Below, one piece after another: positions 4,143 through 39,875 of a DNA stretch of 64,000 bases. Below the pieces are notes generated by a model. That model had not been told where the DNA came from and ran no database searches. It worked only from the letters and a program-made list of their open reading frames with translations. This DNA comes from Phallusia mammillata. Its lineage: Eukaryota. Positions within the stretch are counted from its first letter, which is position 1, and the number at the start of each line of letters is the position of its first letter. Position numbers and translations under genes: made by a program. The stretch lies in contig OZ281497.1 of assembly GCA_965637545.1 (NCBI GenBank), forward strand, positions 21,452,001 to 21,516,000. Reading direction: 5' to 3'.

Positions 4143-4207
4143 ATATGTTTCTATATTTTGTCATTGAAATATTTTCTCTAGTGATTTCTCCAGCATTTAA
4201 ATTATAC

Positions 4208-15421: not shown

Positions 15422-15754
15422 ATGTCCAGAATTTCATCAACTTTGTTTAGCATTACCTGACCTCACTTGTTTGTATTTAAATGTTCGCATATTCCATTGT
15501 TCTGTAGCTGCTATTCTACCATTTGTCATACTGCGTAAGAGCATGTTTTATACTTTGTAAACGGTTAACGTCAACAACTATGGCGTTCTCTCGTTATGCT
15601 TGCCTTGTGGCATGAAAGCATATTTAATTTACCAATAAGTTGTTTTCACCTGTATATATGTAAAAGCATAGAGCCGTGCAGCTTTTCATTATTGTCTCTA
15701 TGCAGCTTGTTTTCACCTACTTTGGTAATTTCAGCATAAAGATGACTAACTTTA

Positions 15755-15846
15755 TTATTATTGTATTTTTCGACAATCAGGCGGCAGTCCGAGAACTGAA
15801 AATTGCCCTTTGTCGTTCACGGGATTCGAACCCAGGATACTCCCGG
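15755..15846 (-). mobile_element. 5'-truncated tRNA-derived SINE
   Basis: Pol III B-box GGGTTCGAATCCC on the minus strand, (TAA)n-like tail, 11-bp TSD gactaacttta at 15744-15754 and 15847-15857. Confidence 0.75.
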
Positions 15847-16848: not shown

Positions 16849-18285
16849 ATGATGGAATACAGAGAAGACAGTACAGAAACTTTGACAAGGTACAAAAGAC
16901 GATGGATTTTTCTGGTGTTTTTCACATTGCTTCAGTGTTTTCCTGGGATCTCGTTTTCCATGTTTGGCCAGATAAGCAGCTTCTTTGTTTCCTACTTTAA
17001 CGTAACCTATACACAGGTGGACTGGTTAACTGTGGCCATCAACGTGGCACCGATATTCTTGACATTGCCATTGTCTTGGACTATCTTTCGTAACATGTTA
17101 GGATTTCGAGGCATCGCTGTCATTTGTGCGTCTACCAGCGTAATAGCATTTGCTTGTTTTGCTATTTCCATGACCGACGGGTCTTTGTTTGCTCTGAGCG
17201 TGATCGGTCAAACAGTTGGTGGAATTTCTGGACAACTGGTGATGACGATCCCACCGACATTCGCTGCTTTGTGGTTCCCTGAAAATGAAGTTGGAACAGC
17301 TATTGGTGTCACTTCAATGGGCACGTACATTGGTAACTTTATAGGCTTGTTGGTTCCTACTTATTCGTTAGTCCATGGCAATGCAAATTCCACTTCTATG
17401 CGTTGGAAAGAACAGGACAAATATGCATTGATTTGGATCTATAGCACGTGTGTTTTTGTGGCAGCTGGTCTGGGCTTGTTTATTTGCATTTTTGTGACAA
17501 ATTTTCCACCGAAACCACCAACTATTGCACAGAAGAACAAACGATGCTCCGAAGAGTTTGCTAAAAACCGAACTTCAACTAAATTTTGGTTGCAAATAAG
17601 ATTTCTTTTGACCAACAGAACATTTCTTTGCGGGACGTTGGTTTTTGCCATTGTCTTTCAAACACCCATTGTGGAAACCACTATGATGTCACAAATAGTT
17701 CGAGAATTTTCTAACAGAAGCCATTTGACTTTGAAACCTTCTATTGTTGGTTCATTTACAATGTGTTTCAATTCATTGGGAAATGCTGTTGGTGCCGTAA
17801 TTGCAGGTAAACTAGTCGACAAACTGAAACATTACGATACCCTGAGCATAGTTGGCACTTTTCTGTGTTTCTTATCCACACTAATCATTTTATTGGGATC
17901 CGTTTTTGCTGTTTACCAGTTGCTTTACGTTGGGAATGCTTTGCTGGGAGTTTTCGCCCAGATCTCTTTGGTAACTATTTACGATATGACAACACAACAC
18001 ACTTATCCTGTTGATGAAACGTTTGTCAGCATATGGTTGATAGGCATCGCAGTTCCTTTTGGGCTTTTCTATGGCCCAATTGGTCGTTTAATATTTAAAT
18101 CCTTTGGTGGAACTGGAGTCCTTTTATTTCAAAGTGGAAGTTTTGCTGTTGGTGCTGCGTTGTGCTTTTTATTTTCACCTGAATATGGGCGATTGGATGT
18201 CGAAGAATCTTCGGAATCGGATCAAAATGAAAATACTCGGGTCTTAGAAAGACAAGCTCTAGTTCAACATGGTAACGTGGAATAA
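16849..18285 (+). CDS. SLC49-like MFS copy 6 (intact, intronless, ~478 aa from ATG 16849)
   Basis: ORF 16816-18285; YKRRW, VDW, WFPENEVGTAIG, PPKPPT, TYPVDE motifs. Confidence 0.92.
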   Translation: MMEYREDSTETLTRYKRRWIFLVFFTLLQCFPGISFSMFGQISSFFVSYFNVTYTQVDWLTVAINVAPIFLTLPLSWTIFRNMLGFRGIAVICASTSVIAFACFAISMTDGSLFALSVIGQTVGGISGQLVMTIPPTFAALWFPENEVGTAIGVTSMGTYIGNFIGLLVPTYSLVHGNANSTSMRWKEQDKYALIWIYSTCVFVAAGLGLFICIFVTNFPPKPPTIAQKNKRCSEEFAKNRTSTKFWLQIRFLLTNRTFLCGTLVFAIVFQTPIVETTMMSQIVREFSNRSHLTLKPSIVGSFTMCFNSLGNAVGAVIAGKLVDKLKHYDTLSIVGTFLCFLSTLIILLGSVFAVYQLLYVGNALLGVFAQISLVTIYDMTTQHTYPVDETFVSIWLIGIAVPFGLFYGPIGRLIFKSFGGTGVLLFQSGSFAVGAALCFLFSPEYGRLDVEESSESDQNENTRVLERQALVQHGNVE

Positions 18286-19256
18286 AGACCCTGTCCCATG
18301 CAACTCTTAAACGTCGTACGTTTAGGTTCGATGATGACGATGTTTGTGTGAACTTCTGCATTGAAGTAGTTCCAACCAAATTAAAATTACGCCAAGATTC
18401 AAATGACATTGCATTTCTGCGTTCACAGAGTTGGCTTTAAATATCGTGCACGTGTATTTAAATTTGTTGACACCGCGATTATAACAGCAATGTTATTTTT
18501 GCGTAAAATGCACTTTCAGCATTTGATCACGGAAGATTGTTTTCAACACCAGACATATTGACGTGTGTATTAATTGTTTGAACGTTGAAGGAGATTGCCT
18601 TTGCCATAGTTTCCGTTTATTGTTATATACATCTCCAAATTACGCAACATGTTCGCAACATCGTTTGCTAACGAAATAAAAGAAACATATCCTTCATAGC
18701 AAGCATGATTGATAAGGTATTGACAACGTGTGTCTTCTCTACCTTGGATTGAGTGCTTTCGTATCAACATGCAAATATTGTAGTAATTCAAATTTTAGAT
18801 GATGTTCTTGTTCTCACACATCACACACAAAAAATGTTTTTACATGTAGTGAAAACTTTTATTGTATTTATAAAATGCAAAGTTAAGGATGTTCCGAAGA
18901 AATAACTGTGATGTATTTCCCTAAAAGTGCATAAAGAGGGTAAACATATAAAACAATCGCAAAAAGACCTGAAACAAAGTATAACATTAAAAATATAAAC
19001 CCTGTCTAATGTTTGTTGTCGTTGCTTAAACAGAGTTTTTAGTTTACCTAAACAAGAGTTTGATTTTGGTTTAACCAGAAACAGTTAAGTAATCAAATTA
19101 GTTTGTGTGTAACTTTGTATTTCATTTTGTTTGAAAAATGGAGCTTACTCATACGATTCCAAAAATTCGTTATGTGTGTAGACTATAGACTCGTAACTTT
19201 ATGCTTTACGAACATAAAAAAACATGTGACTTAGCAACATCGATCACTGATAATAA

Positions 19257-20693
19257 TCATTTATTTTCGCGTGTGTCATTGATCAATTTTGCCGATTCTG
19301 CCACTTCGTCTACTTCACTGAGATTTGGATTCTCAAGAACGTCGAAGCGTCCGTATACGGGCGAAAAAAAGAAAGTCAGAATCAGAGCCATCAAAAAACT
19401 TACATTCTGAAATACCACAACCGCTATGCCGCCGAGCGAATTAAATATTACTCGGGAGATTTCGCCAAAAAATATTCCGAATGGTGCCAAGACCCCGATC
19501 AGCCAAACACTAACCACCGTCTCATCAATGGGATACGTCTGCTGGGTTGATATGTCGTACACAACCACCATGGTAATTTGCCCAAACAAGCCTAACAGAA
19601 AATTTCCGGCGTACAGCATGATGTACTGCGCAAAGACGACCCCTAGTGTTACAATTACAGCGGCTAGAAACGACGCCAGGCTGCTGGCTATCGACAGACG
19701 GTCGTACCGCTTGTACTTGTCGACCAATTTGCCTCCAATCAACGTCCCAACCACGTTTCCAACTGAGTAGAAACACATGACGTACACACCTATGACGTCA
19801 TGCTTCAGGGAGAGCCCCTTCGCCTCCGCGAACTGTTGAATAATTTGTGACATCATTGTGAATTCGCCGGTGGTGCCTTGGAAAATTAATCCAAATACCA
19901 AAGTGCCCAAAATGAAAGTGCGGTTTGTGAAGATTGTTTTTGTCTGGGACCAGAACGCAGGACAGTTGAGATCTGAAGGAGTCTGATTTCTTTTAAGTTT
20001 TTGGGCCACAGTAGGGGGTTTAGGTGGTAGATCTGTTCCGAAAATTGCAAGGACAACGCCAACAGATGTTGCTATTGCGATGCAAACGCAGTAGATCCAA
20101 ATCAAAGTGTATTTATTTTTTACCATCCAGTATCGCTTGTCCGCAGAAGTCAAGTTGTTCATTCTTAGCTTCATAAGGTGCGATGGCACAATAAGACCTA
20201 CAAGGTTACCGATGTACAAACCCATCGAAATAATCCCAATTGCTGTTCCTACTTCGTTTTCAGGGAACCACAAGGTTGCGTACACTGGTGGAATTGCAGT
20301 AATAATTTGTGCTGCAAAGCCGTTGATTGTTTGTCCGATGACGCCGATTCCAAAAAGTGACGAACCGGCCAAAGAAATCGCAATACAAGAAAACCCCACT
20401 GCTACTGATATTGCGCAAATAATGGCAAGAACTTTCAACCCCATAACTTGTTTAAACAGCAGCCAAGCTAAAGGTAAAGTGGTAAATATGGGTGCAATGT
20501 TAAAAGCTATTGTCATCCAGTCCACTTGGGCGTAGCCGACACTGAAGTAAGCGACAAAAAAGTTGCTGATCTGGCCAAAAGCAGAATACGATATCCCACA
20601 TAGTATTTGTAACAGCGTCAGAATGCCCAAGAACAGCCATCGTCTTTTGTATAACTGTGTGTCCGTTTCTTTGTTGGTGATATTGTTCAACAT
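19257..20693 (-). CDS. SLC49-like MFS copy 7 (478 aa, intact, intronless)
   Basis: Full ORF with the same motifs. Confidence 0.92.
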   Translation of the reverse strand: MLNNITNKETDTQLYKRRWLFLGILTLLQILCGISYSAFGQISNFFVAYFSVGYAQVDWMTIAFNIAPIFTTLPLAWLLFKQVMGLKVLAIICAISVAVGFSCIAISLAGSSLFGIGVIGQTINGFAAQIITAIPPVYATLWFPENEVGTAIGIISMGLYIGNLVGLIVPSHLMKLRMNNLTSADKRYWMVKNKYTLIWIYCVCIAIATSVGVVLAIFGTDLPPKPPTVAQKLKRNQTPSDLNCPAFWSQTKTIFTNRTFILGTLVFGLIFQGTTGEFTMMSQIIQQFAEAKGLSLKHDVIGVYVMCFYSVGNVVGTLIGGKLVDKYKRYDRLSIASSLASFLAAVIVTLGVVFAQYIMLYAGNFLLGLFGQITMVVVYDISTQQTYPIDETVVSVWLIGVLAPFGIFFGEISRVIFNSLGGIAVVVFQNVSFLMALILTFFFSPVYGRFDVLENPNLSEVDEVAESAKLINDTRENK

Positions 20694-22138
20694 GTTGCCT
20701 TGTTATATTCGTCCTAATTTTTTGCCCAAATGCTGCATAACAATGTACTTAAAATAAGGCTAAAAAGAATAAGTTTTTGTTACTGCTTAGTTTAGGTGTG
20801 TTGTGCTTGTGAACAAAAATTCTCTCTCAGGTACCTTTGGCTAAACAATTTCTAACTTGCGTAGTGTTTTGCATTAGATGAGACATAACTTCCCGCCAAC
20901 CGTAGTCCAGCTGTTATGATCTCAACTACATGCTGGATCGGACCTTGCCAAACATGGCGCACTAGTTAATTGTATACAAGTTTTTACCCAAGGAACGCCA
21001 ATCCGCCACTAAGGAGTTGCTGCTCTTTTTCATTGTTTGTGCGGCCATATGTATCGTGGCTCTGCTGAAGTTTTGCGAACAAAGATTTACCCTTTAATCC
21101 GTTTGATTGTTTGCAGCTGCAGTCGTATTATAATCGTTTTGCTCTTCCGTTTCTAAACAAACGGTTTTCACACAATGGTGGCGGGTTACGTAATGCCAAA
21201 CTTATATATAAGTTATGTTGCTAAAGTTCCACGCAGTTTGCTGACGTTTTCATTACTAATTTCAAACGCCGTTTACTGAACTCAAATACTTGTTTATCTT
21301 TGGTAGCATGCAATTAATACATTTGCTCCGTACATACAGCAGCAGGACCCCTAAACCACATGCACACCCGTGTACACGGATATTGTCCATTTATTTATTA
21401 CAAGTTACAACGGATGTATGTGAAGGGTGCAAATGATCGATAACATTTTATGCTGTGGAAACAATGATCGATTCGTTGTCTAATAGTAATACAGGTCAAC
21501 AACTGGTTCGACTATACCTGCGGTGTACAAACCAGAGGAGAAAGTTCAATTCCTTAATTACCAATGCAATAATACTCCAAAGTTAGGATCTTATTCTAAT
21601 CATCGATTTGTGTGTGTGTGGTTCCTTCTGGCGCTTGAAAATACACAAAAGGGTTTCCTTCGGTGGTTTATTTTCATGTTGAATCCCACCCTCTTTCCCC
21701 AGCACGGTGGTAAGTTCTATTAGCCTCCAAACTGGTCCAACCAACTTCCCACCCTCAGTTGTGTTACTCACAATGCGCCAATCCCACTGTGAGCCCCAGT
21801 CACATAATGCTTTATAATACGGTGTAGCTGCACCGCGTTCGGCCATTATCCACCAATTGTGCCCTCCACTGTTGGTATAGAGCTACTTACACCATACCTC
21901 ACGTCAGCCGCACATGGAGCTACTTTTCGATAGGTGGCGCAGGAGCTGAGTTATATATATATTCCTAATATGAAAGTTAAAGACACATTTAAAACTTAAA
22001 TCCTGACCACAACAGTATCAGATAATCTGCGATAATTAGAGAACTTTGTTTAACTCCATCGAAATTTTTCGTAAAAACAAACAATTACGTTGACAAAAAT
22101 ATTGGGTTTTTCAGCGCAGCAAGTATTTACTCGGTGCT

Positions 22139-24213: not shown

Positions 24214-25961
24214 CTGCATCTATAGGGTACACTCTTTCATCGGACATTTTGTTTGTTACAAACGATTTCGATGATTGACTTTTGTCCCAAATACAACCAT
24301 AAAACTAAATAGTTAAAGGTTGATGTATAGCCTAAAATGATTTTTAATGAGTGCTTTTAAGGTGGAGACTAACTATCCTATTGCTCAAACAAATGTTGAC
24401 GCAGCACTTTTCATAAGAAGCAATTAGTAAATCGGTGAAACTATGATAGTAATGACTGAAAACGTCATTATTGACGTAAGTATATTAAGAGTTGCTATTT
24501 CTCCATTAACTTGACAAGTACTATTATTTTCACTTTAATTTTTTGGTTCAAAAGATTTCTAATTTTTTTTATTCAAGCTGACTTCACAAGCATGGCGTTA
24601 TTTGTTTTCTCGTGATATCGCATTTGCAATTAGGTACAGTAAACTTAAATCTGCAACCCAGTAGTCGTTGTAATCCAAGCATTGTAGCTCATTTGCTTGT
24701 AAGTGTCAACGTTTTATTAAACAAAAATCTTCACAAAAAATTTCCGCTTGCTAACTTCATAGAGCGGTTTCAGCTTGATCTTAAAACCTTGTTGAGGATT
24801 ACCCTGTATCATTTTTTTATTTCTTGCAACGCATTTTAAATCAGCAACACATTTTTATCGTTTGATTCACAATTGTTAAAAATACTGCATTTTATCGATT
24901 TGGATTGGCCGGTACAGTCGTTAATATCTTGGTATAAAACTTGGTGCAGTTGATCGAACAACAGGAACACTGTCGTACTCATGCTCATCCGATTGATCTG
25001 CAACAATTAAAAGCATGTAAATAGTTCTGTATAGGTTATTCCAAAAAATCTGTTGGTTATGCAAACAATAGCAATTCGAAAGAGATGCCGGTAAGAAAAG
25101 AATTGAGGATCTCTGTTTCAGAAAAACTGTGGCAAATTTATTCCTGGTTGTTTTTTCAAGTTTTTTTTTAGCTTTTCATCATATCGTTTAATATGACTCT
25201 ATTCATCTTAAAATATCTGTGGTGTGACTTGTAGACTAAATTTCCTGTGGTCAAGCGACAACCAAAAGTATTGGCAAAGCTCACTCAACGTCCAGAAAGT
25301 TTGAATTCGCTGAGCGTGATGTTTGTTTTATGTAGCAGGGTGTTTGATGTGTAGGATTTTGAACTACTACTTTTTCATATAATTTCGATGTATATGTGCA
25401 TTATTGACTGCAGTTGCGAGTATAGCCATTGTTGTGTTTATAGGGCTACATGGTCGACACCGATGTACCCGCTTGCCCCAAACACTTGTCCAATTTTCAG
25501 ACTTTTGTTTTGACCACTTGAAATTATGACAACCGAAATGACTTAACCATATCTGATCTGGTACCTTTTTCGATGTAGTATGCATCAGTGTCACGACCTG
25601 AGGACGAAAGAGAAGAAGGAACGTATGACGTCAAAGGTATATTGTCATTTCTTGATCCCTGGTTACTGACGTGGCCTCGCCAATTACTGAAGCCTGGCGT
25701 ACCTAATTGAAGTTACTTAGTTAGAATCAAAAGCAAAACAAAACTTGATGTGATTTTAATGACTCGCCTGCCACGTTTATAGAATCGCTGGGTAACGATT
25801 TTAATAATTATAGAAACGATTTGTTATCACTACTTTATTGTTTATTATTACCCAACTTGTTTTTGATGACCCAAGCGTAAAGTAGGGTACACTGGTTCTT
25901 ACACAAATGACCTCTGCTTTGAGGCACATAGCAAAGCCATCTTTAGATGGTTAATATCAGT

Positions 25962-28900
25962 TCATCGGTGGTATTTAGGTTTAAAAATATATGTTTTGGT
26001 TTGGTTTATTTTGTTCGTGCGGTTAAAATAAACACCTGATCTCCCTTTATTGATGAAACTTCCTTTGAACGATTGCGTTGCCGACGTCTGAAACCTGTTC
26101 GTATAGGTGATAATTTGTCGCTCAGTTCCTGTGAAACAACATGGGCACTGGTTACCCATAGACCAACTGTTTAGTTTATTTCGTTTCTGAACGTTGCACT
26201 CATTTTCTTGAAAAACTTACTGTTTGTAAATAATAGTGGAACTGACACCAAATATTTTCTACTTACTTGGTGGGCTGATCGTGTTGTTCACCGCCGGTGT
26301 ATTTTGACCCCTGGTTGGTTGAACCAGGTGGTTTCCTCTGTTCGGGAAAACAGCTGATTTTGTTTCCAGATTATCCTGAAAATGTGGACTTCTGATCCCA
26401 TTAGTCCACGATTTTTCCGCTGTAAAATGAGATTATGTGGTTTAAAACATATTGATCTAAAACTGACAAAATAAATATAGGCGTAATATATAAGATATAG
26501 TGGGCATGGTTACCGAAGTTTCGCAGCCATTTATAAATAGCAATTGTTACTTTGTGTTTGTAGACAAAGCAAAACATAACTTACTTTAATTTGTAAACAG
26601 ATAATAATTTTTGTTTGAAAATCGCCACTTTAAAATGAGTTTGGGTGATTTGGAAAGAGGACTAACCAGTTATGGGGGGAAAGTCCTCCTGATCGGCGTC
26701 TGAATCGTCAAACGAGTCATCAATCTCAGTTTCTTGTTCACTAGGTAAGGGTGGGAGAGGTTTTTGTCTCTTTTCCCGTTCTGTTAGCCCAAAACAATTA
26801 TTTACAGGCAAACAATATGACAAGGACACGTTATACGCAAAAATAGTGCCCGTTGACTTTTTCTTGCTGTTTTACGAAACCATTCAACGATAACAATTTA
26901 ACAAAGTGCAATGCAAATAAATTTAACTTGACTTGTTAAGTTGTCACATTAGGATGTATTTAAACGTCGATTTGGTAAAAACGTAAAACTTACCCGCTAA
27001 CTCCTTCCTGTTTGCTTTTATTTTTTTCGCCGCCATTTCTTGTGCTAGTTGTTTCTGGTCGTCCAACGTTTTCGTTGTAACTTGACTGGAAGCTTTACTC
27101 GGCGCAGTAGTGCGACTGACTTTTGATTCTTGAACAGATTTTGGAGTAGCCTGTGTCTTCGGTTTTCTACGGTTCGGTTTTGTTTCGTTTTCCTCCCAAT
27201 ATTCTCTTTCCGTTGTCGTGTTTGAGGCTTTTGTTGGTTTCTGTCTCAGTGTTTGGCTGTTTACCTGCTTGGAGGTTTTACTAGAGCGGGGAGCTTTATT
27301 CTGCACTGATTTTTGGCCTGGTGATTTTGTTGAGGTTTTTGGTTCAGATTGCTTTAAAATTTTGGGTTGATTTTTCCCTTTTGAGGCATTTTTCTTTACC
27401 AGATGCTTCTTGCCCTTTTCTGTGGAGTTCTTTAAAGTTTTTGCTGTTTTTTTCTTAACTTCAATCTCGTTTTCGTAGTCTTCGTCTTCTTCATCAACAT
27501 ATTCATCATTTTCATCATAGTTGTCTCCCAACTCTTCTTCATCAATCCCATCATCTTCCTCTTCCTCAAACTCAGTATAGTCCTCATCGTCAATGTCTTC
27601 ATCATCGTTTTCTTCTTCAGTTTCCATATAATCCTCTTCTTGATCATAAAATTCCTCTTCCACATCTTCATCATCCCAGAATGTTTCCTCGTTCACCCTT
27701 TTTGACTTCTTCGGTCGCCGTTTTTGCTTTTGCACCACTTTTTGTCTCTTACTGCTGGTCAAAGTTTTTGTCTTTTTGCGTGACAAAGATTTTGTGGCCC
27801 TTTGCCTTTTTGCAGTTACCCGACCTTTAACCGCACCTCTTTTTCTTTCCAGTTCTCTACTTGCATGTGCACGTTTCTTACGTACGGCAGTTTGTGACTT
27901 GTTGACAAAATCTATTGCAAAAAATAGGTCGCTGTTTAGCTACGGCAGTTAGAAATTTATGCAGTATTTATAAAACATTGCTAACCTTTCTTTTTTGCCT
28001 TTGCTTTTTCGATCGACTCTTTCGAACTGCAAGTTTTTTATAAATATTAACAAAAGTTTTTGTTTGCAGGAACTGAGGTAAAAAATTGGTAAATTAGAAA
28101 AAAATGCAACCTTTTGTAATAAACTGATCCAAACTGCGACATGTTTCACATATTGTGGCCTGTTTTTACTAATATTGTCAAAACTGTAGTCGAGTAAATC
28201 GAGTCACTTGTAACGATTAAATGGATCGAAATGTTTATGACTAGGACTATGTACAAGTTAATTACAACTTAATTATACTATACAAGGCGATAAAAATCAC
28301 CAACTCACGCGTTGCCAGCTAGTCCTTTAAATTTCTTCACTAAACCTATCCCGGCAACACCAACAAGTCCCCCAATCAACCCTGCCCCTCCAGCCGTGCC
28401 AAGTGAAGTAAGAAGCCCAGATGGGTCATCAAGGCCACCAGCGACACCGGGCTCCGATTCTGATCCGTTTTCGGTTGCTTCAAATACAATGTACAATTGC
28501 AATGGATGATTTTTACAGGCTAATTTAATCTATATGTTAAAATATAGACCTATCAATACAAGAAAGAAACTATGTGCCCTCTAACAAATTTTGGACTCAA
28601 TCTTTGCTTAATTTGTGGATGATATCGGACAAACAAGCAGTCTTTTAGAACAAAACTGTTCGGTTGATATTATGATTATGTACTGAAGTAAAATCAGTCA
28701 GATATGTCAGTATGTTGTGATCCTTCCTTATGCCAACAAAGAACGCAGGGGCCTATAAACACAAACCAGTTATCTGTCTGTACGTTAAAATGTTCTTACG
28801 CCATATCTTTGCTAAGTGCGCATAATTTATTCACAAAAATGCATGTGCTTTCGTTTTCATCCGACTCCTGTCTACCTGCAGTCGGATCAAAATTGCGGGG

Positions 28901-31629
28901 CAACTTATTAGGCTTTCCACCTTCTGGGGCGCTGGTTGTCAACAGAGCAGTTGTGTCTTGAACCTCAGTTGTATTCACCGCAAAAGTTGTGTTCATTTCT
29001 GCAATTGACGAATTTGTTGCTGTTTCTGTGCTGGTCTCATCAAACGTTATCAATGTCGTGACAGGGACGGTTTGGGTGGTCGTGGTGGCGGCTGAACTAC
29101 CACTGGTCGTAATTGTGTCGGTGGTTACTGAAATTTGAGGGAACGTAACTATGGTTAAGTCACCTTTAATTGAATAGCAATTAGTTTAAGTGACTGAAAA
29201 ATCCCACAAGAGTGAAATATACACGTCTTTTTTACAACAGTCTGTTTTGACTGATCATAGTTGTAGATTCTAACGCAAAATTGTGAAACACTGCTGATTT
29301 ATCAATAAAGTTAGTGTCAAGGGTTGATTATAATTTTTGTTTTGGTAGCTACCATTTTTAGTCTAAAGGGCATTAATACGGAACAGAAAATGCAAATTAG
29401 GTTATTTGACCAATTAAGGGGGGTTGAATGTCTTTGATTTAAAGCGCTTTTCCATTACATTTTGAAAGAAGCTGCAGCTTGCATGGGGTAGATACAAGGG
29501 CGTCCGCAGGTTTTCGGTTAGGGGGGTCAAGGTGGGTTGACCATTACACCATCCAGACATTTTATCATTTTTATCAGTGTTTGTGATTTGGGGGTCCGCA
29601 AAGAGATCTAATGACGTCATTAGGGAAATTCCCAAAATAAAATGTTGGACCCCCCCCCCTTTAAAAATTTCTGGATACGCCCCTGGTTGTGATTATGTCA
29701 ACAGCAAATTTGAAAATTAGCGATTTTTGAAATAGCTTAGTTTCAATCTGCCAAGGACTGGTAGAAGTGTGGCAAGCTGTAAATGCAGTTTACCAGTAGC
29801 CTATATGTGGTGATTTGAGATTTGCAGTGAGCCTAAAAAGATTTGAGCATTCTGCACTAATCCCCAAAATCAATTAATTTGATATCTACGAACCACAAAT
29901 CACCATATAGCTGCATTTGTCAAAAAACTAAAGAAATTGAACAGCAAGCGTATAATCATTTTTCATCCAACAATTTTCCAGGGGGGGTCAGCTGACCCCA
30001 TTTGCCCCTATGTGCGGACGCCCTTGGGTAGATATTATTTCCGCAAAGAAATTAGGCTCTAACAACAGTAATTGTCAAAAAGTTACTGATCTTTCAGGTT
30101 TTTTTTACCTGATGTGCTTATGTCTGTTGTTGTTTCTTTCAGGGTTGTAGTTGACTCCGTCGTTGTCGGTATTTCTTCTGTAGTTGTCACCGGGACTGTA
30201 GTTGTCGGAATTTGGGTTGTTTCTATTGTGGTTGTTGCTGGTGTTGTGGTTGTTGTAGTAGTTGTAGGTTTTGTTGTTGGTTCTTCTGTGGTTGTTGTAG
30301 TTGTAGGTTTTGTTGTTGTTGGTGTTGTTGTCGGTGTTGTTGTAGTAGGTGTTGTTGTAGTAGGTGTTGTTGTTGTTGTAGTTGTTGTGGATGTTGTTGT
30401 TAGTTCTGCCGTTGTTGTCGGTGCAAGTGTAGTTGTTGTTTCTGTTAAATTGGCACAACAACATAATAATAATACATATCTGCTACAATGCGTTTTTTCC
30501 CTCTTACAAATTTTACTCAAGCGACTTTTTAAGCTTCAGGAACAATCCAGTATTTCACGTCAGCTTATTCTGTCAGAAAAGCAGTCCCGTGACTGCACCT
30601 TTGATGATCAACTATCACGTGTTTTTATCACGTGTTGTGTACACCGAACGTTATGCAGTCGATTTTAACAATTTCCAAAGCCTGCTTACCTGGTAGAGAC
30701 CTTTGACAGATGTACCTCGACTGGAACTCATTACAGCCAATATCAATCCACCTGTAGAGAGGGTCAACTGCATGTACCCATCCCATTATCACACAATCCT
30801 CGTGATCGAGATCATTGGGCTCTCCTGACGCCCACTGGGCATCTGCATCGACCAGTGGTGTTGAGTCAGACCAAATCCACTCGTTTGTCTCGTAGAATTT
30901 CTTCAAGCCAATGTAATACGATGTGGGATATTCTGAAATACCAAAGTAAAATGTTACATTTTATGGTATAGGCCATTATGAACAGTCAAAAACAGTTAAA
31001 TGACAATAGTTTGTTTTGTCCCAGTCTTGAATTTATGTTCATCTTAAACAATCTGGCGATCCCCTACTGCGAAGCTGACATGTCCAGCTCCAGCATACAT
31101 CAACTTTTGGCGCATTCTCCACTGAGCTGGATTTTTTTAGCCTGCCTTTTGCCATATGGTGGTGAATGTTTGGTGACCGGCTGATATAGCGCCTTTAATG
31201 TCCCTGGCTTATTTTTGATTAGTTTTTTTTTTTCTAAAAAGTTGTAATTTGTTCCTAATTCCTATGTCGACCCATAAATGCCCTGCGCCTATTGCCGATA
31301 AAACTCCTTAGACAGAAATTATTTTGCCAAATCCTGATTAGTGCCCAAATTTGTAAGAGCGATATCAAGCACGCCATTTTGTTTCCAATATATTCTTTGA
31401 TTAATTTCTTACCGGATGCAGTTCCGATTTTCTCAATAAGAAAGTCCTGAATGGTTTTACTCTTTATTGTAACCAGGATGGCATCACTAGCATTACATCT
31501 TTCCTCTGCTTGATAATAGGTGTCAACTGTTCCACCGATAAAGTACTCAAACTCGCCTAAAACATGCCACTGAGAAAGGCAATTGCCAACAAGTGTACTC
31601 AAAATAACGATTACCGCAAGTCTGTTCAT
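25962..31629 (-). CDS. Type I membrane protein: signal peptide, EPN-type C-type lectin domain, Thr-rich mucin stalk, Gly-rich TM, long charged cytoplasmic tail (~868 aa)
   Basis: Phase-consistent exons 31629-31413, 30932-30690, 30441-30109, 29127-28876, 28477-28309, 28026-27986, 27911-26994, 26780-26667, 26419-26267, 26128-25962 (2607 nt). CTLD motifs YYIGL, WIWSD, WASGEPND, DCV, WIDIGC, YICQ. The last exon is the least certain. Confidence 0.8.
29495..30026. mobile_element. Intronic hAT-type MITE containing the end of a second element
   Basis: TIRs CAAGGGCGTCCGCA ... TGCGGACGCCCTTG; perfect TSD ggtagata at 29487-29494 and 30027-30034; internal terminus ...ctggatacgcccctg near 29685. Confidence 0.88.
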
Positions 31630-33580
31630 TTTATTACAAGATTATTATATCTGCGCGATAAAAATATTTTTTGTTTATAACCAATTTCTTTTTCAAAGCC
31701 AAATTCCTGTTAATAAGGCAAAATTGTTTTTTTCTACAACTTATTTCGCTTTCTCTAACAAGGACAAACCTAATTAGTTTTGTAAGGTATTTTTTAAGTC
31801 TATCAAAGACGTTTTTTAATTACCTTGCGGCCTAAACTTAACACTCTTAGTTACAAGTACCCTGTTGCAATATTGGAAATCGCTAAAAGCTTATATGTTC
31901 TATCACTATCACTGCAATTCCTAAAATCACTTTCACGGAAAATCAGTGTCGATTTTTGACCCTTGCGTCATACTTGACCCTTGTGTCATAATTAAAATAT
32001 CAAACATTTTTAGTTTATTTTTTTTCGATAGGCTGGTGCTGACATTTACCAAATGAACAAAAACGACACGGGTCAAGATATATGTGCAAAATTGCTAATG
32101 GGTATTCACTAAAGTTGCGCAATTTTGCTGTATTCGTCCGTAATACCCTTAATTGTGTCTGCAACTTAACGACCATTTCTCAGTCTATCTACGTGAATCT
32201 GCAAATTGACACCACTTCCGCCGTGCATTTGACTGCGGTTGTATCGCGAATGAAATATGCTTGATGACTTTTAGCTATTATCTTAGTTTAAAAAGTGAAT
32301 GAGTTTTAAAAGCAGTATATTTAACTCAATATATCAAGAATAATGCCTGGCAATCCATTCGCTTAAAACGTATAGCGTTTAAAACTGAACTGTTTATTTG
32401 TTAGTTTAATGGAATCCTTTGCAAAGGCAAATGAACTGCTGCAGTATACCACATTTAAAAACGTGTCATATAATTTCAAATTTATCCTTTTCATCCGAAA
32501 ATATTGTAAATTTACATAGAAAAGGACAAAAGAAAAGACGACCCATAGAAGCAAAAAATGCACAAAGATTTTAGTTTTGGTAAACTACCCATGGAAGCAA
32601 AAATACATTAGTTTTGGGAAACTAAAAAAAAAAAATTGTTGTTGGTTGTATCTTGGAATAGAAATTTGTATTATTTGACACATCCACAAACACTACAAAA
32701 CGCAATATAGCATTTCAGTCTTACAGTAGGAAAACCACACACTTTTTCATTTATCAGCAAATAGCCATCGGCAAAAGAATATCATGACTGTTAAGTGTAT
32801 TGTGTTGCAATTTTGACGTCACTTCCAGGCGGTAGCATATTTACTTGCAGTCGTTATGTCTATTTAAAGCTTTAGACCCAGCGTTCTGCGCACATTGTAA
32901 CTCCGCGATAATCGCTTTTATCAGTACGAAGAAAAACATAAAAAATGTGACATGGTTGCTATTCGTCCAATTTAACTTTTCTGATTGATTTCTGCCTAAT
33001 AGCCTATATCTTTTTGTTTGGAACTTGATGTGGCAGATTCGTCGGTTAGAATAGAAACGCCTTTTTCGGGAATTATCTGTCGATAAATGAAAATATAACT
33101 AAAAATTCAAGTAAACTCAGCAGCTTTCAAAAAAACATTTGATTTTCACACACTACAAGTTGCTATACGCCGTGTTGACTGAAGAAATGCCATTGTCGCT
33201 AAATTCATCTTAAAAGCATTTAAAAGTCGCAACATCTTAAAGTTAGAGCAACAGTACTGGGGGTTTGTTGGTTACCCTTACAGGGCCGAAAAACATCTGT
33301 GACAAGCATGAATTAAAATTTAAATGGTCCTCTCCGCCCACTGGCTGATCTCAAAGTAACCAGCCTATTCAATGCAGCTAAACCCACTCATTGTGACGTG
33401 AGAAGCGCTGTGTGGAAGTATTCAAAAATAAAATGTAGTCACAATGCCTGGAAAACCACTTGCTTTGCCGTACATGGGTACAGATGGTTATTAGTTTGAG
33501 GCAAGCAAGGCAAAGGCAAAGTAGTATCAACAAACTGACTTTACTGTGTGAACGATGCGCAACTGTCGAGCTAAGTGGTA

Positions 33581-36502
33581 ATGGCGCCATTCTTATTGTT
33601 TTTCCTTGTTGCTATCACCTTGAGCCAACCTGGCGCAGCAGAGTGGATAAATTTCGCCAACCACGAGTACAAAGTTGACTTTAGAACCGTCAGCAATTTT
33701 TCCGCAGCGCTGGGATTATGTGAAGAGATGTTGGCAACCCTTGTAGTTGTTGAATCTGAAAATGTTCTCGATTTCCTTTTGGGGGAAATAGGAAATCTGA
33801 CTGGTAACGTTGTTAAAACATTGTACAGATACGGTTTTAAATGGCAGCCTTACTGTTTTAGATGCACCCCACACGTTCTACGTTGCCAGGACGAATTTAA
33901 CGGATAACGACAGCAACGAAGGTTCAAACACTACCTGTTTGGGTGTGATCAAAATGAATGGCACAGAAGAAATGATTTATCAAATCAGCAATATATCTTG
34001 TTTTACGCCAGCAGGGTAGAAATATATTCACCAAATCTTGACGTTGGTATTTTGTACTAAACGTACTTTTAAGCAGGTTGATTTGTGAGCGGAATACAAG
34101 CTTACAAACAACACAGTTTACCGAAACAACAACTACGTTTGCTACGTCTGTGAAGACTACAACTTTTATCGATAGTGATACGACCACTCCGGAGAAAGCA
34201 ATTGGTACAAAGTCAACCTTTTGTGAATACTTAAATAGACAAATTCAAACTAGAAGCATTTTGCTCGTGTTTAGGGACGGCAAGTGCTTCTACGCAAACA
34301 GGGTCAAGCAAATTCAGCACAGAGTCAAGTACATCCGATGCACCGACAACAACTAGTAATGGTAAATGGCTGTTTACTTATTTACCGTCAGCAGTTGAAA
34401 ATTAAAGCAAGTGAAACCAGTCATTGATAGTATAAGTGTGAAAAACGTTGTTATCAAATCTCACCAAGTTTTATACTTTTTACATTGTCTTGGTAATATA
34501 TTGTTAATAAAAAACTGTTTACATTTGTAGAGACAGTGTCTGGAGTGCCACCAAGCGGAGGTTTAACACATACACAGGTGACAATCATTTCAGCAGTTGG
34601 TGCGTGTGTTGGAACGCTTCTGGTGACGATGGGTTGTTTCCTCCTGTGGCGCATCACTCGCGGAAGGTGGGCGTAAACAAAAAGTTGTTTACAACATTTT
34701 ATATTGACGTAACTTAGGTAATGTTTTGCTAATCCCGGTAGTGACTCGCTTTTTCCGACTGCATGATACAAAATATGTAACTACTGATCTTATTTTTGGT
34801 TTGTTTCCAAGTCTATTAGACCCTACAATAGTAACAAAAAATAACTAACAATTAATTATTGTTTTTTGTTTTGAAGAAAAATTTTAAAAGTAAGAAAAAG
34901 ACAAATGCAAGCTTTGTCTCTTAAATACCGTCTACAAAACAAACCTGATTACAACGCAAGTTACCAAGAAGGTAACCTTACAAACAAACTTGCAGGTTCT
35001 GCAAAACTTTAAACTAAAATATATATTTTTTATTAGAAACTGACGAAAGTCCGCCCGTTTCCAAAGCACCCAAAACTGAGGATGAGCAAGCATGTAACAA
35101 TCACAGAATACCAACCAAAGTTTCATACAAAACGACCCAGTTTGGCTCCGAAGGTCAAAAGTCTCCTAAATCTGCAAACAGCACTGACTTTCCCACTTAC
35201 GGACAACACGAAGATCAAGTCTTCTCAACTTCATCTGCTTTAAGACTAAAGAGAAGGGCAAGTTTTCCGCCCGATTTCCATGGCAACAATGACGTACGTG
35301 TCAGCTACAAATCGAATGGAAAATCAAAAAGCGATAGAGCATCGTTGAGCAGTATATTCCTGAAACGGAACGACACAAGGTCAGAAAGTGTTGATTTGCG
35401 TCAAAGCACCATAAAAGATTTGTTTAAAATTCAAACTATCGTTTCTGAATTCGTAAACGGATCAACAAACGTAGGATCTACAAAGATACAAACTGCGACC
35501 AAGTCAAATATCCAGAAACCAGAAGAAACTGAAATAGCTACAAGAATTCCAAATGATGGAAATCACACAAACAATGAAAAATCTTGCAGCAACCAAAAGG
35601 AAGAAGGACCTTCCAAAGAACTACAGGATCGTACGAAAATTGATAATAGTCAATCAGGCGAAATTTTTATTTCATCACCCCAACCTGGTCATGTAAAAAT
35701 GCGCCATGGAGAAAAAGACCTTGCCAGCAAAGGACGGGCCTTTCAAGACTCGATTGCGAAAGGCGTTCGACGACTGAGCCAACCCTTTCGCAAAGGCAAA
35801 ATGTTTGAGGTAGTATTTGCACAAGACGCTGACGACGATATATACCTCACAATGACTGGAAACTCTAAGACCAAAACTCAAGAACAACCAATGAGCGACG
35901 ATATCTACACTGCAATGTCTGGCGAAAGTAAAAACAAAACCCCAGCAAATTGGAAACCGCCGAAAAATCAGATAAAGAAACCAAACGTGGTTTCGAAAAA
36001 AGCACCGACTATCCGTCCACCTCAAGCAGAATTTCGAAAACCTTCAGATCCATACGTGGCTTCGAGAATGCCCTGGCAAGACCAAGATGACAGTCAAGAC
36101 TATGTGGACATGTTTTCGAAATCTCAAGTCCATGTTGGTGCAATAGGACAAGATAGCGTTTATACTGATATGCACGGCTCACAACACATGCCAAGCCGAC
36201 CGGCTATTCATGGTAACAGCAGCAGTCTCGGTCGTAGCCAGACTCAAAGACCGAGACAACAGCGGTCAGCCATGGAACGAAAATTGAACGCTTCTGTTTC
36301 CGGACAACAGAAGTTTCACACAATGAATACGAGGCGCGACGATGATTATGAGGACGTTTCAACACTGCCTCGCGTAACATCACACCACAGCGATTATTTA
36401 AAACCAGCACCAGAGCGCCATACTGACCCCAAGCGATATAATCGAAATTCGAGTGTTTCCCCATACGGAAGTGGGGTTGCACCGCATGTGCGAAATTGGT
36501 AA
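33581..36502 (+). CDS. Type I membrane protein: signal peptide, shortened C-type lectin-like domain, S/T-rich stalk, TM, ~525-aa tail with multiple YxxM motifs (~762 aa)
   Basis: Phase-consistent exons 33581-33803, 33862-34015, 34077-34204, 34275-34361, 34531-34666, 34877-34971, 35037-36502 (2289 nt). Exon 1 is paralogous to exon 1 of the opposite gene; the domain ends GLICER; TM IISAVGACVGTLLVTMGCFLLW. Confidence 0.82.
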
Positions 36503-37785
36503 AGACAGTAGCAGTCAGAGACTAAGCTTAGTAGTCTCTGGTAGCAGTACAAATGCAACCCAATAGGTTGTGCCCTAAAAGTGCAAACGTAAAATTTGTT
36601 TTTTGATTTTTTATTATTATCCGCTAGATGACGCTAGTGTACCGTATGGCATTTTGTCTGCAATCCGTTTGATGTGCGACAAGCAATCAGACGAATTTTT
36701 GACATAGACCTAATCAGTATACGTACTTGATTGCATAGTGATATTAGGTGATATTGTATGAAGAAGATTTTGACTATGGTTTAACTTAACCGCGTAAGAA
36801 TGAACAATGTAAACTTTGGTTTGAAGGCAAACTGTTATTTCATTGTTTTTGAAAAACGGTAATATTGCCTATGCAAAGTTTAACAAAAACATTTATTTCA
36901 CGTGGTAGAAACCAGCCTTTTCCATTTCCTTGCCCGGAAGATGAAATTAACTTGAATACAATTTTGACATTAAATTTCAGGATTTTGCACAACGATAGGC
37001 TACTCGTTAATAAAAGACCAGAAAACCTTCTATGACTAGCTTGGTTTGGTAGTTTTGAAAGATAGGTCGGCAATTTAAAATCATTACGTAACCTTGCTAT
37101 TGTCAATCTGCGCAATGAGTTGAATTCAAAGTACGTATCCTAGCGCCATTGGATTAGATACCAAGCAAAGGCTTTGCACCTATACAATTTGGTCAATCAA
37201 TATAATTTAAGACATAAAATACAACTAAATTACTATTCTTGGGTACAACATACCGGTAAGAAAGGAACCGCGTCATCAAATTCGAACTGGGACGCATTCG
37301 ACACTGCATTTTTTGTGACGTCATAATGCAAGGGCGACAAAGCGTGACGTACGTTTCTTCGTGATTTGACGATTGCTTTACTTGTTGTTTGTTTTGTTTG
37401 CGCTAGTTATCTTGTGTGATAGAGTGATAAATTCTTCCTAGCTTGGATAGTTTGTGTAAGAAAGACAAATGCAGCTTAGGCTATCAAATTATTCGCAATA
37501 GTTTTGTGCTAAAAATGAAAAAAAGTATTTTGTGGAACATTAGATTTAGTTATTAGCTTCAACAACAACGTCAGTACTCTAAAACTAGAAAGGGAAAGTA
37601 AACACAATTAAAAAGAATTAGAAAAAGAAAATAAATACTAACAAGCATTTTGTACATGTTTTTCACTTTGGTTATTCACTATGCAGCATTTGATGAAGGT
37701 TTATTTAGCATTTGAACAAAATTGCTGTGTTTAACAACTTAAAAAGGTTAAACTTAAAGTGAAACCAATGTAAACATTTTACTGA

Positions 37786-39875
37786 ATGGGAAAGATAATT
37801 AATATGAGCGCTGATTTTGCCCATCAAGAAACACTGACTTTGCACAAGTTGGTGTTTAACAATGACATTTCAGGAGTATCAAAGTATGTAAACCGCAGCA
37901 AGTCAGCCCAGCTTGCTGATCAGCTGGATCAACATGGAAACACACCGTTGCATCTTGCTGTCATGCTTGGCCACAAAGAATGTGTTCAGATTCTTCTCAA
38001 ACACAATCACACTGTTAATGTCAAAAACATATATGGTTGGACTCCGTTGCATGAATCAATTAGCTATGGTGACAGACAAACCATAACATCACTGTTTAGA
38101 GCCATAAGAAAGCAAAACAAAACTGCCATTAAGCATAAAAAGCCTGAGATTCGCAGAGCTTTGGAAGCAATCGGTGGCAATTTTTCTTTGGAAATGAAGT
38201 GGGATTTCCAAAGCTGGATCCCTTTTGTGTCAAAGATTTTGCCATCAGACATATGTAAGATCTACAGAAAAGGAAGTCGCATTCGACTTGACTCAACCCT
38301 GGAAGATTTTAGTGACATGAGATGGATTCGTGGGGATGTGACATTTTTGGTAAACTTTGACACTGAAGGGGAACCTGACATTGTACTGATGGATAATAGG
38401 TAACCTTATTAAATGTTTTAATCCACTACAATTTCATAAACTGTAATGCCAAGTATATATATACTGGCTGAAATGTGTTTGATTATCCTCATGCTAAAGA
38501 AAGTACCACTTTGCATTTGTTTTTCTTTGCATGATTACTAGCACATTATGTTGTGTGGTATGCATTAGGTTAAGTAAATATAACATTTGCATTTTAAAGG
38601 TTATCACACAGTAGCTCATGTAAATATGTTTAGAGTTAATTGTTTGGTCATGGGTGCACAATGAGTAACAGTGGTGTATGTTATGATAGTTATTTGATTG
38701 GCCACTTGTCTTGAAAAGAAATCAAATTGCCCTAAATAAGAACAAAGTGACCATTGAAAGAGCATAAAATGTAGTGAAGTGTTAATTGAAATGTACTGAA
38801 AATTATGATTTATGCATTTTTTGGTCATTCATAAAACAATTGAAATGTTAAAGTTGTATAATTTCTGCATTTTATGACAGTTCAATGGCAATATCGTTCT
38901 TAGTTGTTCATTGTCTTGATTGTGATTCTGAAAACTTTTTGGAGTAAATTCAAATGTTACAAAGACAAAATATATCTGGGGCCTGGTTTATTAGGGTAAT
39001 GTTATGTATTAAGTAATATTTTCTAATGAGAAATGTGATGTCATATATTTTCCAGGAGAAAAGTTTACCAACGCATGCAGCAATCTTCGAATGAACGTGA
39101 AGCCTCAATTGAAGATGAAGTGGATGTTGCAATGAGTAGCGATATCATTGATGTGGCTGTGAAAAGCAAAGCATCTGTCATCGAAAGAGTTAGTTCAGGC
39201 TGGTTTTTCAGGCATGAGAAAACTGAAAAAATTGGAAGATTTGAAGCAGACTTCTATCGAATATCTGGCCTTTTGGTACAGACTAGGAAACGCAGAGAGC
39301 ATTTGTCCGAGGAAGACATTCGGCGCAATAAGTCTCTGCGCGACGCCTTTAAGCATGCTGAAAACACTGAAAAGTTCTTGGAAGAAAGTGTTGATGAAGA
39401 ACCAGAGAGAAGAAAGTCATTACCCGCACCTGAAGGTCAGAAGATGTCATGGGACCAATATCACAAAAGCCTTGCTGCCTCAAACCCATGTTTGGGAAGG
39501 TACCCCAGAGAGAAAATAAATCAAAAACAGTTTGACCCTGTAGTTGGACTTAGTGCTGACTTTCCAGTTAGGTTGGAGGATTTGCTGCCTATTTTGGAAG
39601 CTTTAGGCCCAAAAGGAAAAATGTTCTCAAAGCTAAAAGACTTTATCAAGCTAAGACTACCTCCTGGCTTTCCAGTACGAGTTGACCTACCAATTTTCCC
39701 TGCTGTAAAGGCCACTGTCAGTTTTACCCAGTTCCAGTTTTCTGATGCACTTTCAGACTCTATGTTTGATGTCCCAAGGTCGTACAAGGAAGACCGCGAG
39801 TGGTTTGAAAAAACTGCCAAAGAAAAGCAACAAGAAATGGCAAAACTCAATAGCAAATCTGGAAGCTCAGTCTAA
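37786..39875 (+). CDS. ANKRD13C: Ankyrin repeat domain-containing protein 13C
   Basis: Exons 37786-38399 and 39056-39875 (phase-2 intron, join DNRRKVYQR). GNTPLHLAVMLG, ISYGDRQ, WDFQSWIP, RKRREHLSEEDI, LPPGFPV; no UIMs at the C-terminus. Confidence 0.9.

What the first reader, a model, noticed from the sequence alone, without database searches (positions are those of the whole stretch)
26667..28026. Blocky basic-acidic-basic cytoplasmic tail with acidic tyrosines and a Src-type SH3 ligand
Seen: after the TM comes a K/R block (QKQKRRPKKSKR), a ~75-aa D/E block with six Tyr (EEEFYDQEEDYMET, DEDYTEF, DNYDENDEYVDEEDEDYENE), another K-rich block, EREYWE, then KPLPPLP. Known: RPLPPLP is the classic class I Src SH3 ligand; acidic DY(E) sites are Syk/ZAP70 substrates in SLP-76; charge-blocky IDRs occur in nucleolar/condensate proteins. 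Inference: a kinase-recruiting, condensate-forming tail, or an intracellular domain that enters the nucleus after cleavage.
Basis: partly seen in the sequence, partly recalled or inferred. Interest (0 to 1): 0.7.

Follow-up and report, generated by a model that had tools for sequence, protein, structure and literature searches.

The report
Sea-squirt lectin receptor's charge-block tail
A sea-squirt gene predicted to encode a cell-surface lectin receptor carries, unlike the relatives surveyed on its chromosome, a very long inner tail of alternating positive and negative blocks, with tyrosines buried in the acidic block and a Src-binding-type proline motif, which likely acts as a built-in signalling scaffold, though its splicing, expression and partners are untested.

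Summary
The sequence features are real. They lie in exons 6-8 of a predicted 12-exon, 915-aa type I C-type lectin receptor (minus strand, 31629-24921) of an ascidian, very likely Phallusia mammillata. Charge segregation is far above shuffles (kappa 0.455 vs 0.146±0.026). Six of 7 exon-7 tyrosines sit in a 77-aa block with 50 D/E (P=6e-5). KPLPPLP is unlikely by chance. The exon phases match a database-annotated paralog, so a separate nuclear transcript is unlikely. The gene belongs to a very large family on this chromosome (172 near-full lectin exons found; the scan noted this family before, not this tail). Its tail is an outlier: relatives use YxxV/I/L/M (308 of 621 Tyr), exon 7 has 0 of 7, and the tail has no ITAM, hemITAM or ITIM. 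Best reading (0.45): a charge-gated scaffold for Src/Syk-type kinases and Grb2/Nck-type adaptors, all found in this genome; LAT and SLP-76 are reported absent from ascidians. It is not an SLP-76 or LAT member. No homolog of the tail was found, and the membrane segment is marginal. New variant of a known kind; interest moderate.

The parts
31413..31629 (-). [quoted passage not shown]
   Evidence: Lectin_C positions 3-32, E 0.064, below cut-off; same length and phase as exon 1 of paralog P0052
30690..30932 (-). Exon 2: second half of the lectin domain, with EPN and W-I-D in place of WND
   Evidence: Pfam Lectin_C E 1.1e-7, above cut-off; aligns to CLEC4C/mincle; alignment A1
30109..30441 (-). 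Exon 3: Thr-rich mucin-like stalk
28876..29127 (-). Exon 4: Thr-rich stalk with three N-glycan sequons
28309..28477 (-). Exon 5: Gly-rich predicted transmembrane segment (28415-28338, 19-residue KD mean 1.85, 8 Gly) followed by KKFK; phase 1 to 2
   Evidence: acceptor weak (58th percentile)
27986..28026 (-). Exon 6: 41-nt basic linker exon, phase 2 to 1
   Evidence: the only phase-compatible route from exon 5 into exon 7; acceptor weak (65th percentile); paralog has the same short 2-to-1 exon
26994..27911 (-). Exon 7: 918-nt, phase 1-1 exon encoding the basic-acidic-basic polyampholyte
   Evidence: acceptor 95th and donor 98th percentile; mostly low-confidence in AlphaFold2, helices at 2-43, 143-166, 282-304
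27691..27909 (-). First basic block (exon-7 part; net +34 over residues 396-492)
27460..27690 (-). Acidic block, 77 aa, net -50, with Tyr507/513/530/550/556/564; includes one YxN (DYENE) and FFAT-like EFYDQEE
26994..27459 (-). Second basic, S/T/Q-rich block (net +30 over residues 570-729), including EREYWE at 27210-27193
26667..26780 (-). Exon 8: KPLPPLP (26763-26743) and a second small acidic patch (net -11)
   Evidence: single copy in the genome
26267..26419 (-). Exon 9 (predicted; a stronger-scoring acceptor at 26456 would truncate at 780 aa)
26036..26128 (-). Exon 10 (predicted; second YxN)
25565..25702 (-). Exon 11 (predicted, least certain; alternative in-frame acceptor at 25597)
24921..24997 (-). 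Exon 12: terminal exon with EHEYDSV (24986-24966), the only family-type YxxV, matching the Nck SH2 consensus; stop codon; AATAAA at 24821

Best explanation
This is the predicted cytoplasmic tail of a divergent type I C-type lectin receptor of a large ascidian family, and it likely works as a charge-gated kinase and adaptor scaffold built into the receptor. Shown by sequence: lectin domain, mucin stalk, Gly-rich hydrophobic segment, blocks of +34/-50/+30, six acid-embedded Tyr, KPLPPLP and a terminal YDSV. Inferred with good support (about 0.85): all lie in one protein with the tail inside the cell. Inferred, weaker: at rest the basic blocks bind inner-leaflet anionic lipids and fold against the acidic block, masking its tyrosines. 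Ligand-driven clustering would bring in a Src-family kinase through KPLPPLP-SH3 binding. Src and the Syk-type kinases, the latter recruited in trans by ITAM-like relatives, would phosphorylate the acidic tyrosines, shifting the charge balance and opening the tail. pY564 (YEN) and pY898 (YDSV) would then bind Grb2- and Nck-type SH2 domains, promoting clustering and actin signalling in immune cells.
For: Twelve GT-AG exons join to 915 aa without a stop. Paralog P0052 (Phallusia mammillata CAB3231619.1) maps near-identically to this genome and has the same 72-codon exon 1 and the same TM (1-2), short (2-1), long tail (1) phases. The family signals through tyrosine tails: among 89 tail-like ORFs behind 80 of 202 lectin hits in 1.39 Mb, 41 carry an ITIM-type and 13 an ITAM-type pattern. 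Charge blocks, Tyr clustering and the proline motif exceed shuffles. In the block, Tyr occurs 6 times while His and Ala, also one base from Asp, occur 0 times. Each block Tyr has 6-8 acids within ±5, against a family maximum of 5 in 621. ZAP-70 favours acid-flanked, K/R-free sites (PMC5089863 passages). Two tandem-SH2 kinases with SYK/ZAP-70 as best full-architecture matches exist here, and their FG loops keep basic residues at the ZAP-70 538 and 544 positions by my reading of the motif. Four Src-type genes (one checked against the PDB), Nck and two Grb2-type SH3-SH2-SH3 genes are present. YDSV fits pY-D/E-x-V/P (PMC8187788 passage). LAT and SLP-76 are reported absent from ascidian genomes (PMC12582321 section 17).
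Against: 0 of 7 exon-7 Tyr have +3 V/I/L/M against 308 of 621 in relatives (Fisher P=0.015), so most are poor SH2 docking sites and lack the +3 hydrophobe that kinases prefer. The tail has no ITAM, hemITAM, ITIM, YxxM or PxxxRxxKP. Asp(-1) and YxN are at chance level. The Syk-type kinases lack the K541/K542 equivalents and have near-neutral kinase domains (+4 and -2, against +7 reported for ZAP-70). The membrane segment is at the bottom of the family range (1.85 vs mean 2.75; 3 of 124 as low; 8 Gly vs maximum 6) and has no Cys. The acceptors of exons 5 and 6 are weak, and an acceptor at 28072 would give a short-tailed 444-aa form. No relative of exon 7 was found, so no motif is shown to be conserved.
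Confidence: 0.45

Rival explanations
1. The tail is translated and cytoplasmic but is a fast-evolving, low-complexity charged spacer. It acts by bulk charge (membrane, cytoskeleton or self-association), and its tyrosines are aromatic stickers or drift from Asp codons rather than phosphosites.
For: No homolog anywhere searched. The exon is 44% A. Five of 6 Tyr codons are TAT, one base from GAT. Phe and Trp cluster in the block as well (10 of 13 aromatics). No SH2-type +3 residues.
Against: His and Ala, equally near to Asp, are absent from the block. KPLPPLP and YDSV lie in separate exons and fit binding consensuses. The family as a whole uses tyrosine tails.
Confidence: 0.22
2. The tail tethers the plasma membrane to the ER: FFAT-like motifs in the acidic tract bind VAP, while the basic blocks bind PI(4,5)P2/PS.
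For: With a matrix adapted from Table EV4 of PMC7705450 (position 4 changed by me to D/E), EFYDQEE scores 2.0 and three more sites score 2.5, 3.0 and 3.0; 0 of 89 family tail ORFs reach 2.5. ORP1's FFAT is EFYDALS.
Against: 17% of shuffles of the block score 2.0 or better, and 5.6% give three sites at 3.0 or better. Position 5 is Gln rather than Ala/Cys. The matrix is an adaptation. VAP was not looked for in this genome.
Confidence: 0.1
3. The main product has the charged region outside the cell. Exons 5+6 are skipped (in frame, 845 aa) or the weak hydrophobic segment passes through the membrane. The result is a secreted lectin-mucin whose acidic tyrosines would be sulfated and whose RKKR site would be cut by furin.
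For: Exons 5+6 form a 210-nt phase 1-1 unit, both with weak acceptors. The membrane segment is marginal. Exon 7 has five N-glycan sequons (P=0.08) and RKKR lies at residue 429. Acid-flanked Tyr as sulfation sites is recalled knowledge.
Against: 29 uncharged residues flanked by DD before and KKFK after fit type I topology. The paralog keeps the same exon series with a TM. The SH3 and Nck-type motifs make sense only in the cytosol.
Confidence: 0.1
4. After shedding and intramembrane cleavage, the tail enters the nucleus or nucleolus, where its K/R and D/E blocks act on chromatin or RNA.
For: Seven K[KR]x[KR] NLS-like words and strong charge blocks. Gly-rich membrane segments are cleaved in some receptors (recalled).
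Against: No nuclear-protein homolog or Pfam family. Basic words are expected in any such block. No cleavage evidence. A free GFP-tail would go to the nucleus anyway, so that test alone would mislead.
Confidence: 0.07
5. Exon 27911-26994 belongs to a separate transcript for a soluble nuclear protein, for example through spliced-leader trans-splicing.
For: Neighbouring housekeeping transcripts carry leader-like 5' ends (loose ends at 37688 and 40405).
Against: The first ATG in the exon is out of frame and the first in-frame ATG is at 27627, inside the acidic block. The phases match the receptor and its paralog.
Confidence: 0.03

Closest known systems
Ascidian single-CTLD type I receptors in databases: Phallusia mammillata CAB3231619.1 (P0052), Ciona XP_002129946.2 (P0082), Clavelina lepadiformis LOC143458643 (P0074)
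   Same: Signal peptide, one lectin domain, stalk, TM, tail. 30-38% identity over the ectodomain. Same exon phases as P0052.
   Different: Their tails are short (whole proteins 207-355 aa) with YxxV/I/L motifs or none. This tail is about 520 aa, charge-blocked, with polyacid tyrosines and KPLPPLP.
Botryllus FcoR coreceptors (PMC12582321: abstract, sections 13 and 17, passages)
   Same: Clustered ascidian receptors with tyrosine tails. The relatives here share the [AD]VYxxV core-2 motif (17 of 89 tail ORFs). The review PMC12065747 (passages) speculates that some FcoRs stand in for LAT/SLP-76.
   Different: FcoRs are Ig/sushi proteins with ITIM, hemITAM and core motifs. This is a lectin, and its tail has none of those except one terminal YxxV.
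SLP-76/BLNK and LAT scaffolds (PMC5089863 passages)
   Same: Disordered, acid-flanked, K/R-free tyrosines; proline motif; YxN sites.
   Different: No SAM or SH2 domain, no PxxxRxxKP, no +3 Pro sites (SLP-76 site sequences recalled), no palmitoylation Cys, a large lectin ectodomain, and flanking basic blocks. No sequence homology found.
Vertebrate group VIII (layilin, MT-75) and group XV (Bimlec) CTLD proteins (PMC514892 passages; layilin architecture recalled)
   Same: Single-CTLD type I membrane architecture.
   Different: Orthology not tested. The CTLD's closest hits are ascidian paralogs. Their tails are much shorter (recalled).

Membership tests
Ascidian single-CTLD type I receptor gene family (P0052-like) | Homologous C-type lectin domain nested among the chromosome C4 paralogs | tested here: met
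   31-52% identity to 18 aligned paralogs; nested on a long branch (0.88 vs median 0.12) in a 173-sequence FastTree, with weak local support
Ascidian single-CTLD type I receptor gene family (P0052-like) | Exon plan: 72 codons + phase 1, CTLD exon 1-1, TM exon 1-2, short exon 2-1, long tail exon from phase 1 | tested here: met
   one annotated paralog mapped, some other paralogs may differ
Ascidian single-CTLD type I receptor gene family (P0052-like) | Transmembrane segment followed by basic residues | tested here: met
   KD 1.85 plus KKFK, at the low edge of 124 family candidates
Ascidian single-CTLD type I receptor gene family (P0052-like) | Typical but not universal trait: YxxV/I/L/M-rich tail | tested here: not met
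   0 of 7 in exon 7, 1 of 12 in the tail, against 308 of 621; this is the respect in which it is a variant
Ca2+-dependent mannose-type lectins | EPN motif | tested here: met
Ca2+-dependent mannose-type lectins | WND motif | tested here: not met
   W-I-D here; the middle position varies across the family; sugar binding not testable here
ITAM/hemITAM/ITIM receptors | YxxL/I pair, acidic-xYxxL, or I/L/V/S-xYxxI/L/V | tested here: not met
   regex scan of the 520-aa tail; definitions
SLP-76/BLNK | SAM and C-terminal SH2 domains | tested here: not met
   no Pfam family on exons 7 and 8; remaining exons are short and low-complexity
SLP-76/BLNK | Acid-flanked Syk/ZAP-70-type tyrosines | tested here: inconclusive
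   context fits (6-8 acids within ±5) but Asp(-1) not enriched; phosphorylation untested
SLP-76/BLNK | GADS-binding PxxxRxxKP (consensus recalled) | tested here: not met
LAT-type transmembrane adaptors | Minimal ectodomain and juxtamembrane palmitoylated Cys (recalled) | tested here: not met
   about 370-aa ectodomain; no Cys in TM or tail
LAT-type transmembrane adaptors | Several Grb2-type YxN sites | tested here: inconclusive
   two sites (564, 822); one in the block arises in 28% of shuffles
Class I SH3 ligands | R/K-x-L-P-x-hydrophobic-P (RPLPPLP type) | tested here: met
   KPLPPLP; 0.2% of shuffles; consensus from PMC11842026 passage; binding itself not tested
FFAT-motif VAP ligands | E-F/Y-F/Y-D-A-x-E in an acidic tract, score 2.5 or better | tested here: inconclusive
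   adapted score 2.0, reached by 17% of block shuffles

The most novel reading that the evidence does not exclude
An ascidian lectin receptor that carries its own LAT/SLP-76 equivalent: a polyacidic multi-tyrosine Syk substrate, switched by flanking polybasic blocks, that nucleates phosphotyrosine-driven membrane condensates for a family of over 150 ITIM/ITAM-type lectin receptors, in a lineage reported to lack both scaffolds.
Probability: 0.15. Interest if true: 0.78.

Novelty: new variant of a known kind. Interest (0 to 1): 0.42.

Why it matters
Ascidians have nearly the whole ITAM/ITIM pathway but reportedly neither LAT nor SLP-76, so what scaffolds Syk output in these closest invertebrate relatives of vertebrates is open. 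This gene gives a concrete, testable candidate, and an unusual receptor tail whose charge blocks could act as a phosphorylation switch. It also points to a very large lectin-receptor array with tyrosine tails that I found in none of the papers searched. If the tyrosines are not phosphorylated, it is an ordinary orphan charged IDR on a family outlier.

Tried and rejected
RNA: no RNA holder was listed. Contigs of X3, X5, X8 and X9 laid on 24800-29300, and of X3, X6 and X12 on 24800-41500, gave no cover of the receptor's exons or of the neighbouring lectin gene, while ANKRD13 (with its 38397-39054 intron) and the gene at 40423 were covered in 3 of 3. This blank is no evidence on expression. DNA run X1 matches 24800-29523 without a difference, but it may be the assembly's own source, and it gave no alleles for a selection test. 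Homologs of exon 7: none in the own genome, among longer proteins, in 1.84 billion representatives, in the Atlas, in Pfam or in earlier findings. Low complexity limits all of these. Exons 5 and 8 are single-copy. A dimer prediction of the Gly-rich segment gave no verdict (score 0.03). No SH3-peptide complex was folded. A look-alike KTLPKLP ORF in the lectin array belongs to a P-loop protein, not a tail. I first guessed Clavelina; P0074 is at most 51% identical here and P0052 identified Phallusia. I had recalled FcoRs as lectins; the paper shows they are Ig-family. Subscription papers such as Azumi 2003 were not seen.

Full report
Observation. A 331-codon open frame spans 27939-26944. Within it the 918-nt exon 27911-26994 encodes a basic block, a 77-aa acidic block (50 D/E, six Tyr, 27690-27460) and a second basic block containing EREYWE. 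KPLPPLP lies in the next exon (26763-26743). Charge segregation is extreme (kappa 0.455; shuffles 0.146±0.026; 0 of 2000). Six of seven Tyr and ten of 13 aromatics lie in the acidic block (P=6e-5 for Tyr). The strict proline motif occurs in 0.2% of tail shuffles. The exon is coding: base shuffles give 18.6 stops on average and never an open frame. Single-sequence AlphaFold2 leaves 145 of 305 residues below pLDDT 50, with helices in the first 43 residues, after the acidic block and at the end.

The gene. Twelve GT-AG exons from 31629 to 24921 join into 915 aa without a stop: signal peptide, split C-type lectin domain (Pfam Lectin_C above cut-off for exon 2; EPN kept, WND changed to WID), Thr-rich stalk, a Gly-rich hydrophobic segment followed by KKFK, and a tail of about 520 aa. 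Net charges are +34 (396-492), -50 (493-569), +30 (570-729) and -11 (737-758). With matrices trained on 75 acceptors and 75 donors picked automatically from paralog lectin exons, the exon 7 sites rank at the 95th and 98th percentile of the region's 402 AG and 351 GT. The acceptors of exons 5, 6 and 9 are weak (58th, 65th, 74th). Exons 9-12 are less certain than exons 5-8. The junctions are inferred, not seen in RNA.

Organism and family. The genome is 240 Mb and the window lies on contig C4. P0052, named Phallusia mammillata CAB3231619.1, matches a C4 locus near-identically along its length, so the animal is very likely that ascidian. That paralog has the same exon plan as this gene: 72 codons plus one base, a phase 1-1 lectin exon, a 1-2 TM exon, a short 2-1 exon, then a long tail exon from phase 1. 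This is the best support that exon 7 is the receptor's tail. That the record derives from mRNA is recalled, not checked. The first in-frame ATG in exon 7 is at 27627, which argues against a separate transcript. A search with exon 2 returned 150 matches (150 of 252 candidates scored), nearly all on C4. I fetched 1.39 Mb around most of them. It held 202 lectin hits (172 near full length), 124 with a TM candidate, and 89 tail-like ORFs behind 80 hits (filter: at least 60 aa, hydrophilic, at least 12% D/E, at least 3 Tyr; stop-to-stop ORFs include some intron; tails failing the filter were dropped). An earlier scan note (e1-9991832) also describes a very large receptor family on this chromosome.

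How it differs from relatives. In the 89 ORFs, 308 of 621 Tyr have +3 V/I/L/M; 41 ORFs have an ITIM-type and 13 an ITAM-type pattern; none has a strict class I motif; acids within ±5 of a Tyr never exceed five; 40-residue net charge stays between -0.375 and +0.275. Here exon 7 has 0 of 7 such Tyr (P=0.015), 6-8 acids around each block Tyr, and windows of -0.70 and +0.475. The lectin domain sits on a long branch. The membrane segment is among the least hydrophobic (1.85 vs mean 2.75; 3 of 124 as low) and the richest in Gly (8 vs at most 6). No homolog of exon 7 was found, so conservation could not be tested.

Mechanism. The partners exist in this genome: two intronless tandem-SH2 kinases closest to SYK/ZAP-70, four Src-type genes (one checked), Nck and two Grb2-type genes by domain order. 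ZAP-70 selects acid-flanked, K/R-free tyrosines through FG-loop lysines 538/541/542/544, with Asp(-1) contacting 538 and 544 (PMC5089863, passages). By my motif reading the ascidian kinases keep basic residues at 538 and 544 but not 541/542, and are near neutral overall. KPLPPLP fits the class I consensus (PMC11842026, one passage) and terminal YDSV the Nck consensus (PMC8187788, passages). LAT and SLP-76 are reported missing from ascidian genomes (PMC12582321 section 17; PMC12065747 passages); I did not test their absence here. I therefore favour a receptor-borne, charge-gated scaffold (0.45). Every signalling step is inferred.

Against it. Most block tyrosines are not SH2-type sites. Asp(-1) (3 of 6) and YxN are at chance level for the block (P=0.18, 0.28). 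There is no ITAM, hemITAM, ITIM or GADS-type motif, so Syk would have to be brought by another receptor. Rivals are a bulk-charge spacer (0.22); an FFAT-based ER-plasma membrane tether (0.10; adapted score 2.0, reached by 17% of shuffles; PMC7705450 passages and Table EV4); a secreted form skipping exons 5+6 in frame, with sulfated tyrosines (0.10); a cleaved nuclear fragment (0.07); and a separate transcript (0.03).

Comparison and verdict. It is a member of the ascidian single-CTLD type I receptor family by homology and exon plan. It is not a member of the SLP-76/BLNK, LAT or ITAM/ITIM classes, though it may work like the first two. PMC5465252 (passages) mentions ascidian type II CD94-like lectins, an ITAM glycoprotein and ITIM/ITAM transcripts, but not this family. 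PMC514892 (passages) gives the vertebrate groups. PMC12373286 (passages) had nothing relevant. Six searches listed no description of the family or tail, none with the word Phallusia. Other papers were seen as listings only, and the FcoR paper's supplements were not read. New variant of a known kind; interest 0.42; novel case probability 0.15.

Noticed in passing
window 33581-36502 (+): Head-to-head second receptor gene, 1.95 kb away: predicted 733 aa, degenerate lectin domain (no EPN/WND), same TM(1-2)/short(2-1)/long-tail exon plan, and four YxxM sites (PI3K-type, label recalled) plus DDDYEDV in a tail exon of nearly 490 codons. It could be a co-regulated partner.
   Followed up: partly
window about 23440-21460 (-): Third membrane protein just downstream: short S/T-rich ectodomain, strong TM followed by six Arg, and small tail exons with FFYDIM, EYIYNS and DLYYY; 5' end not found. 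Resembles a transmembrane adaptor.
   Followed up: partly
G000:C4 23.4-29.0 Mb (L002-L081, L091-L144): Array of at least 168 near-full lectin exons with TM exons and tyrosine tails (ITIM-type in 41, ITAM-type in 13 of 89 tail ORFs; DVYAQV/DVYAVV like the FcoR core-2 motif); alternating tail types near 25.4 and 25.9 Mb suggest paired receptors.
   Followed up: partly
L082:1453-3348, L083:1542-3389 (G000:C2 25.61 Mb): Two tandem, intronless Syk/ZAP-70-type kinase genes.
   Followed up: partly
window 37688-41298 (+): ANKRD13 and a LENG1-like gene (name recalled; Pfam Cir_N weak hit) abut (contigs end at 40453 and start at 40405-40447) and show leader-like loose 5' ends in RNA contigs, suggesting a trans-spliced operon.
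   Followed up: no
window 2855-20702 and L145: Tandem array of intronless MFS transporter genes on both strands, some frameshifted.
   Followed up: no
window 26120 (-): An AG 8 bases inside exon 10 would shift frame and end the protein at 837 aa with NYHLYEQV, a family-type YxxV motif; use unknown.
   Followed up: partly
L084:2532-8300 (G000:C4 21.56 Mb): SH2 adaptor gene with repeated YEEPWD/YDDPWD motifs (SHB/SHF-like, label recalled) about 50 kb beyond the window.
   Followed up: no
G000:C4 28709661-28711517 and 29010001-29011557: P-loop ORFs followed by leucine-rich repeats (NLR-like, label recalled, not scanned) inside the lectin array.
   Followed up: no
window 29520-30026 and 31049-31185: High-copy repeats in introns 3 and 1 of the receptor (very high contig depth).
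   Followed up: no
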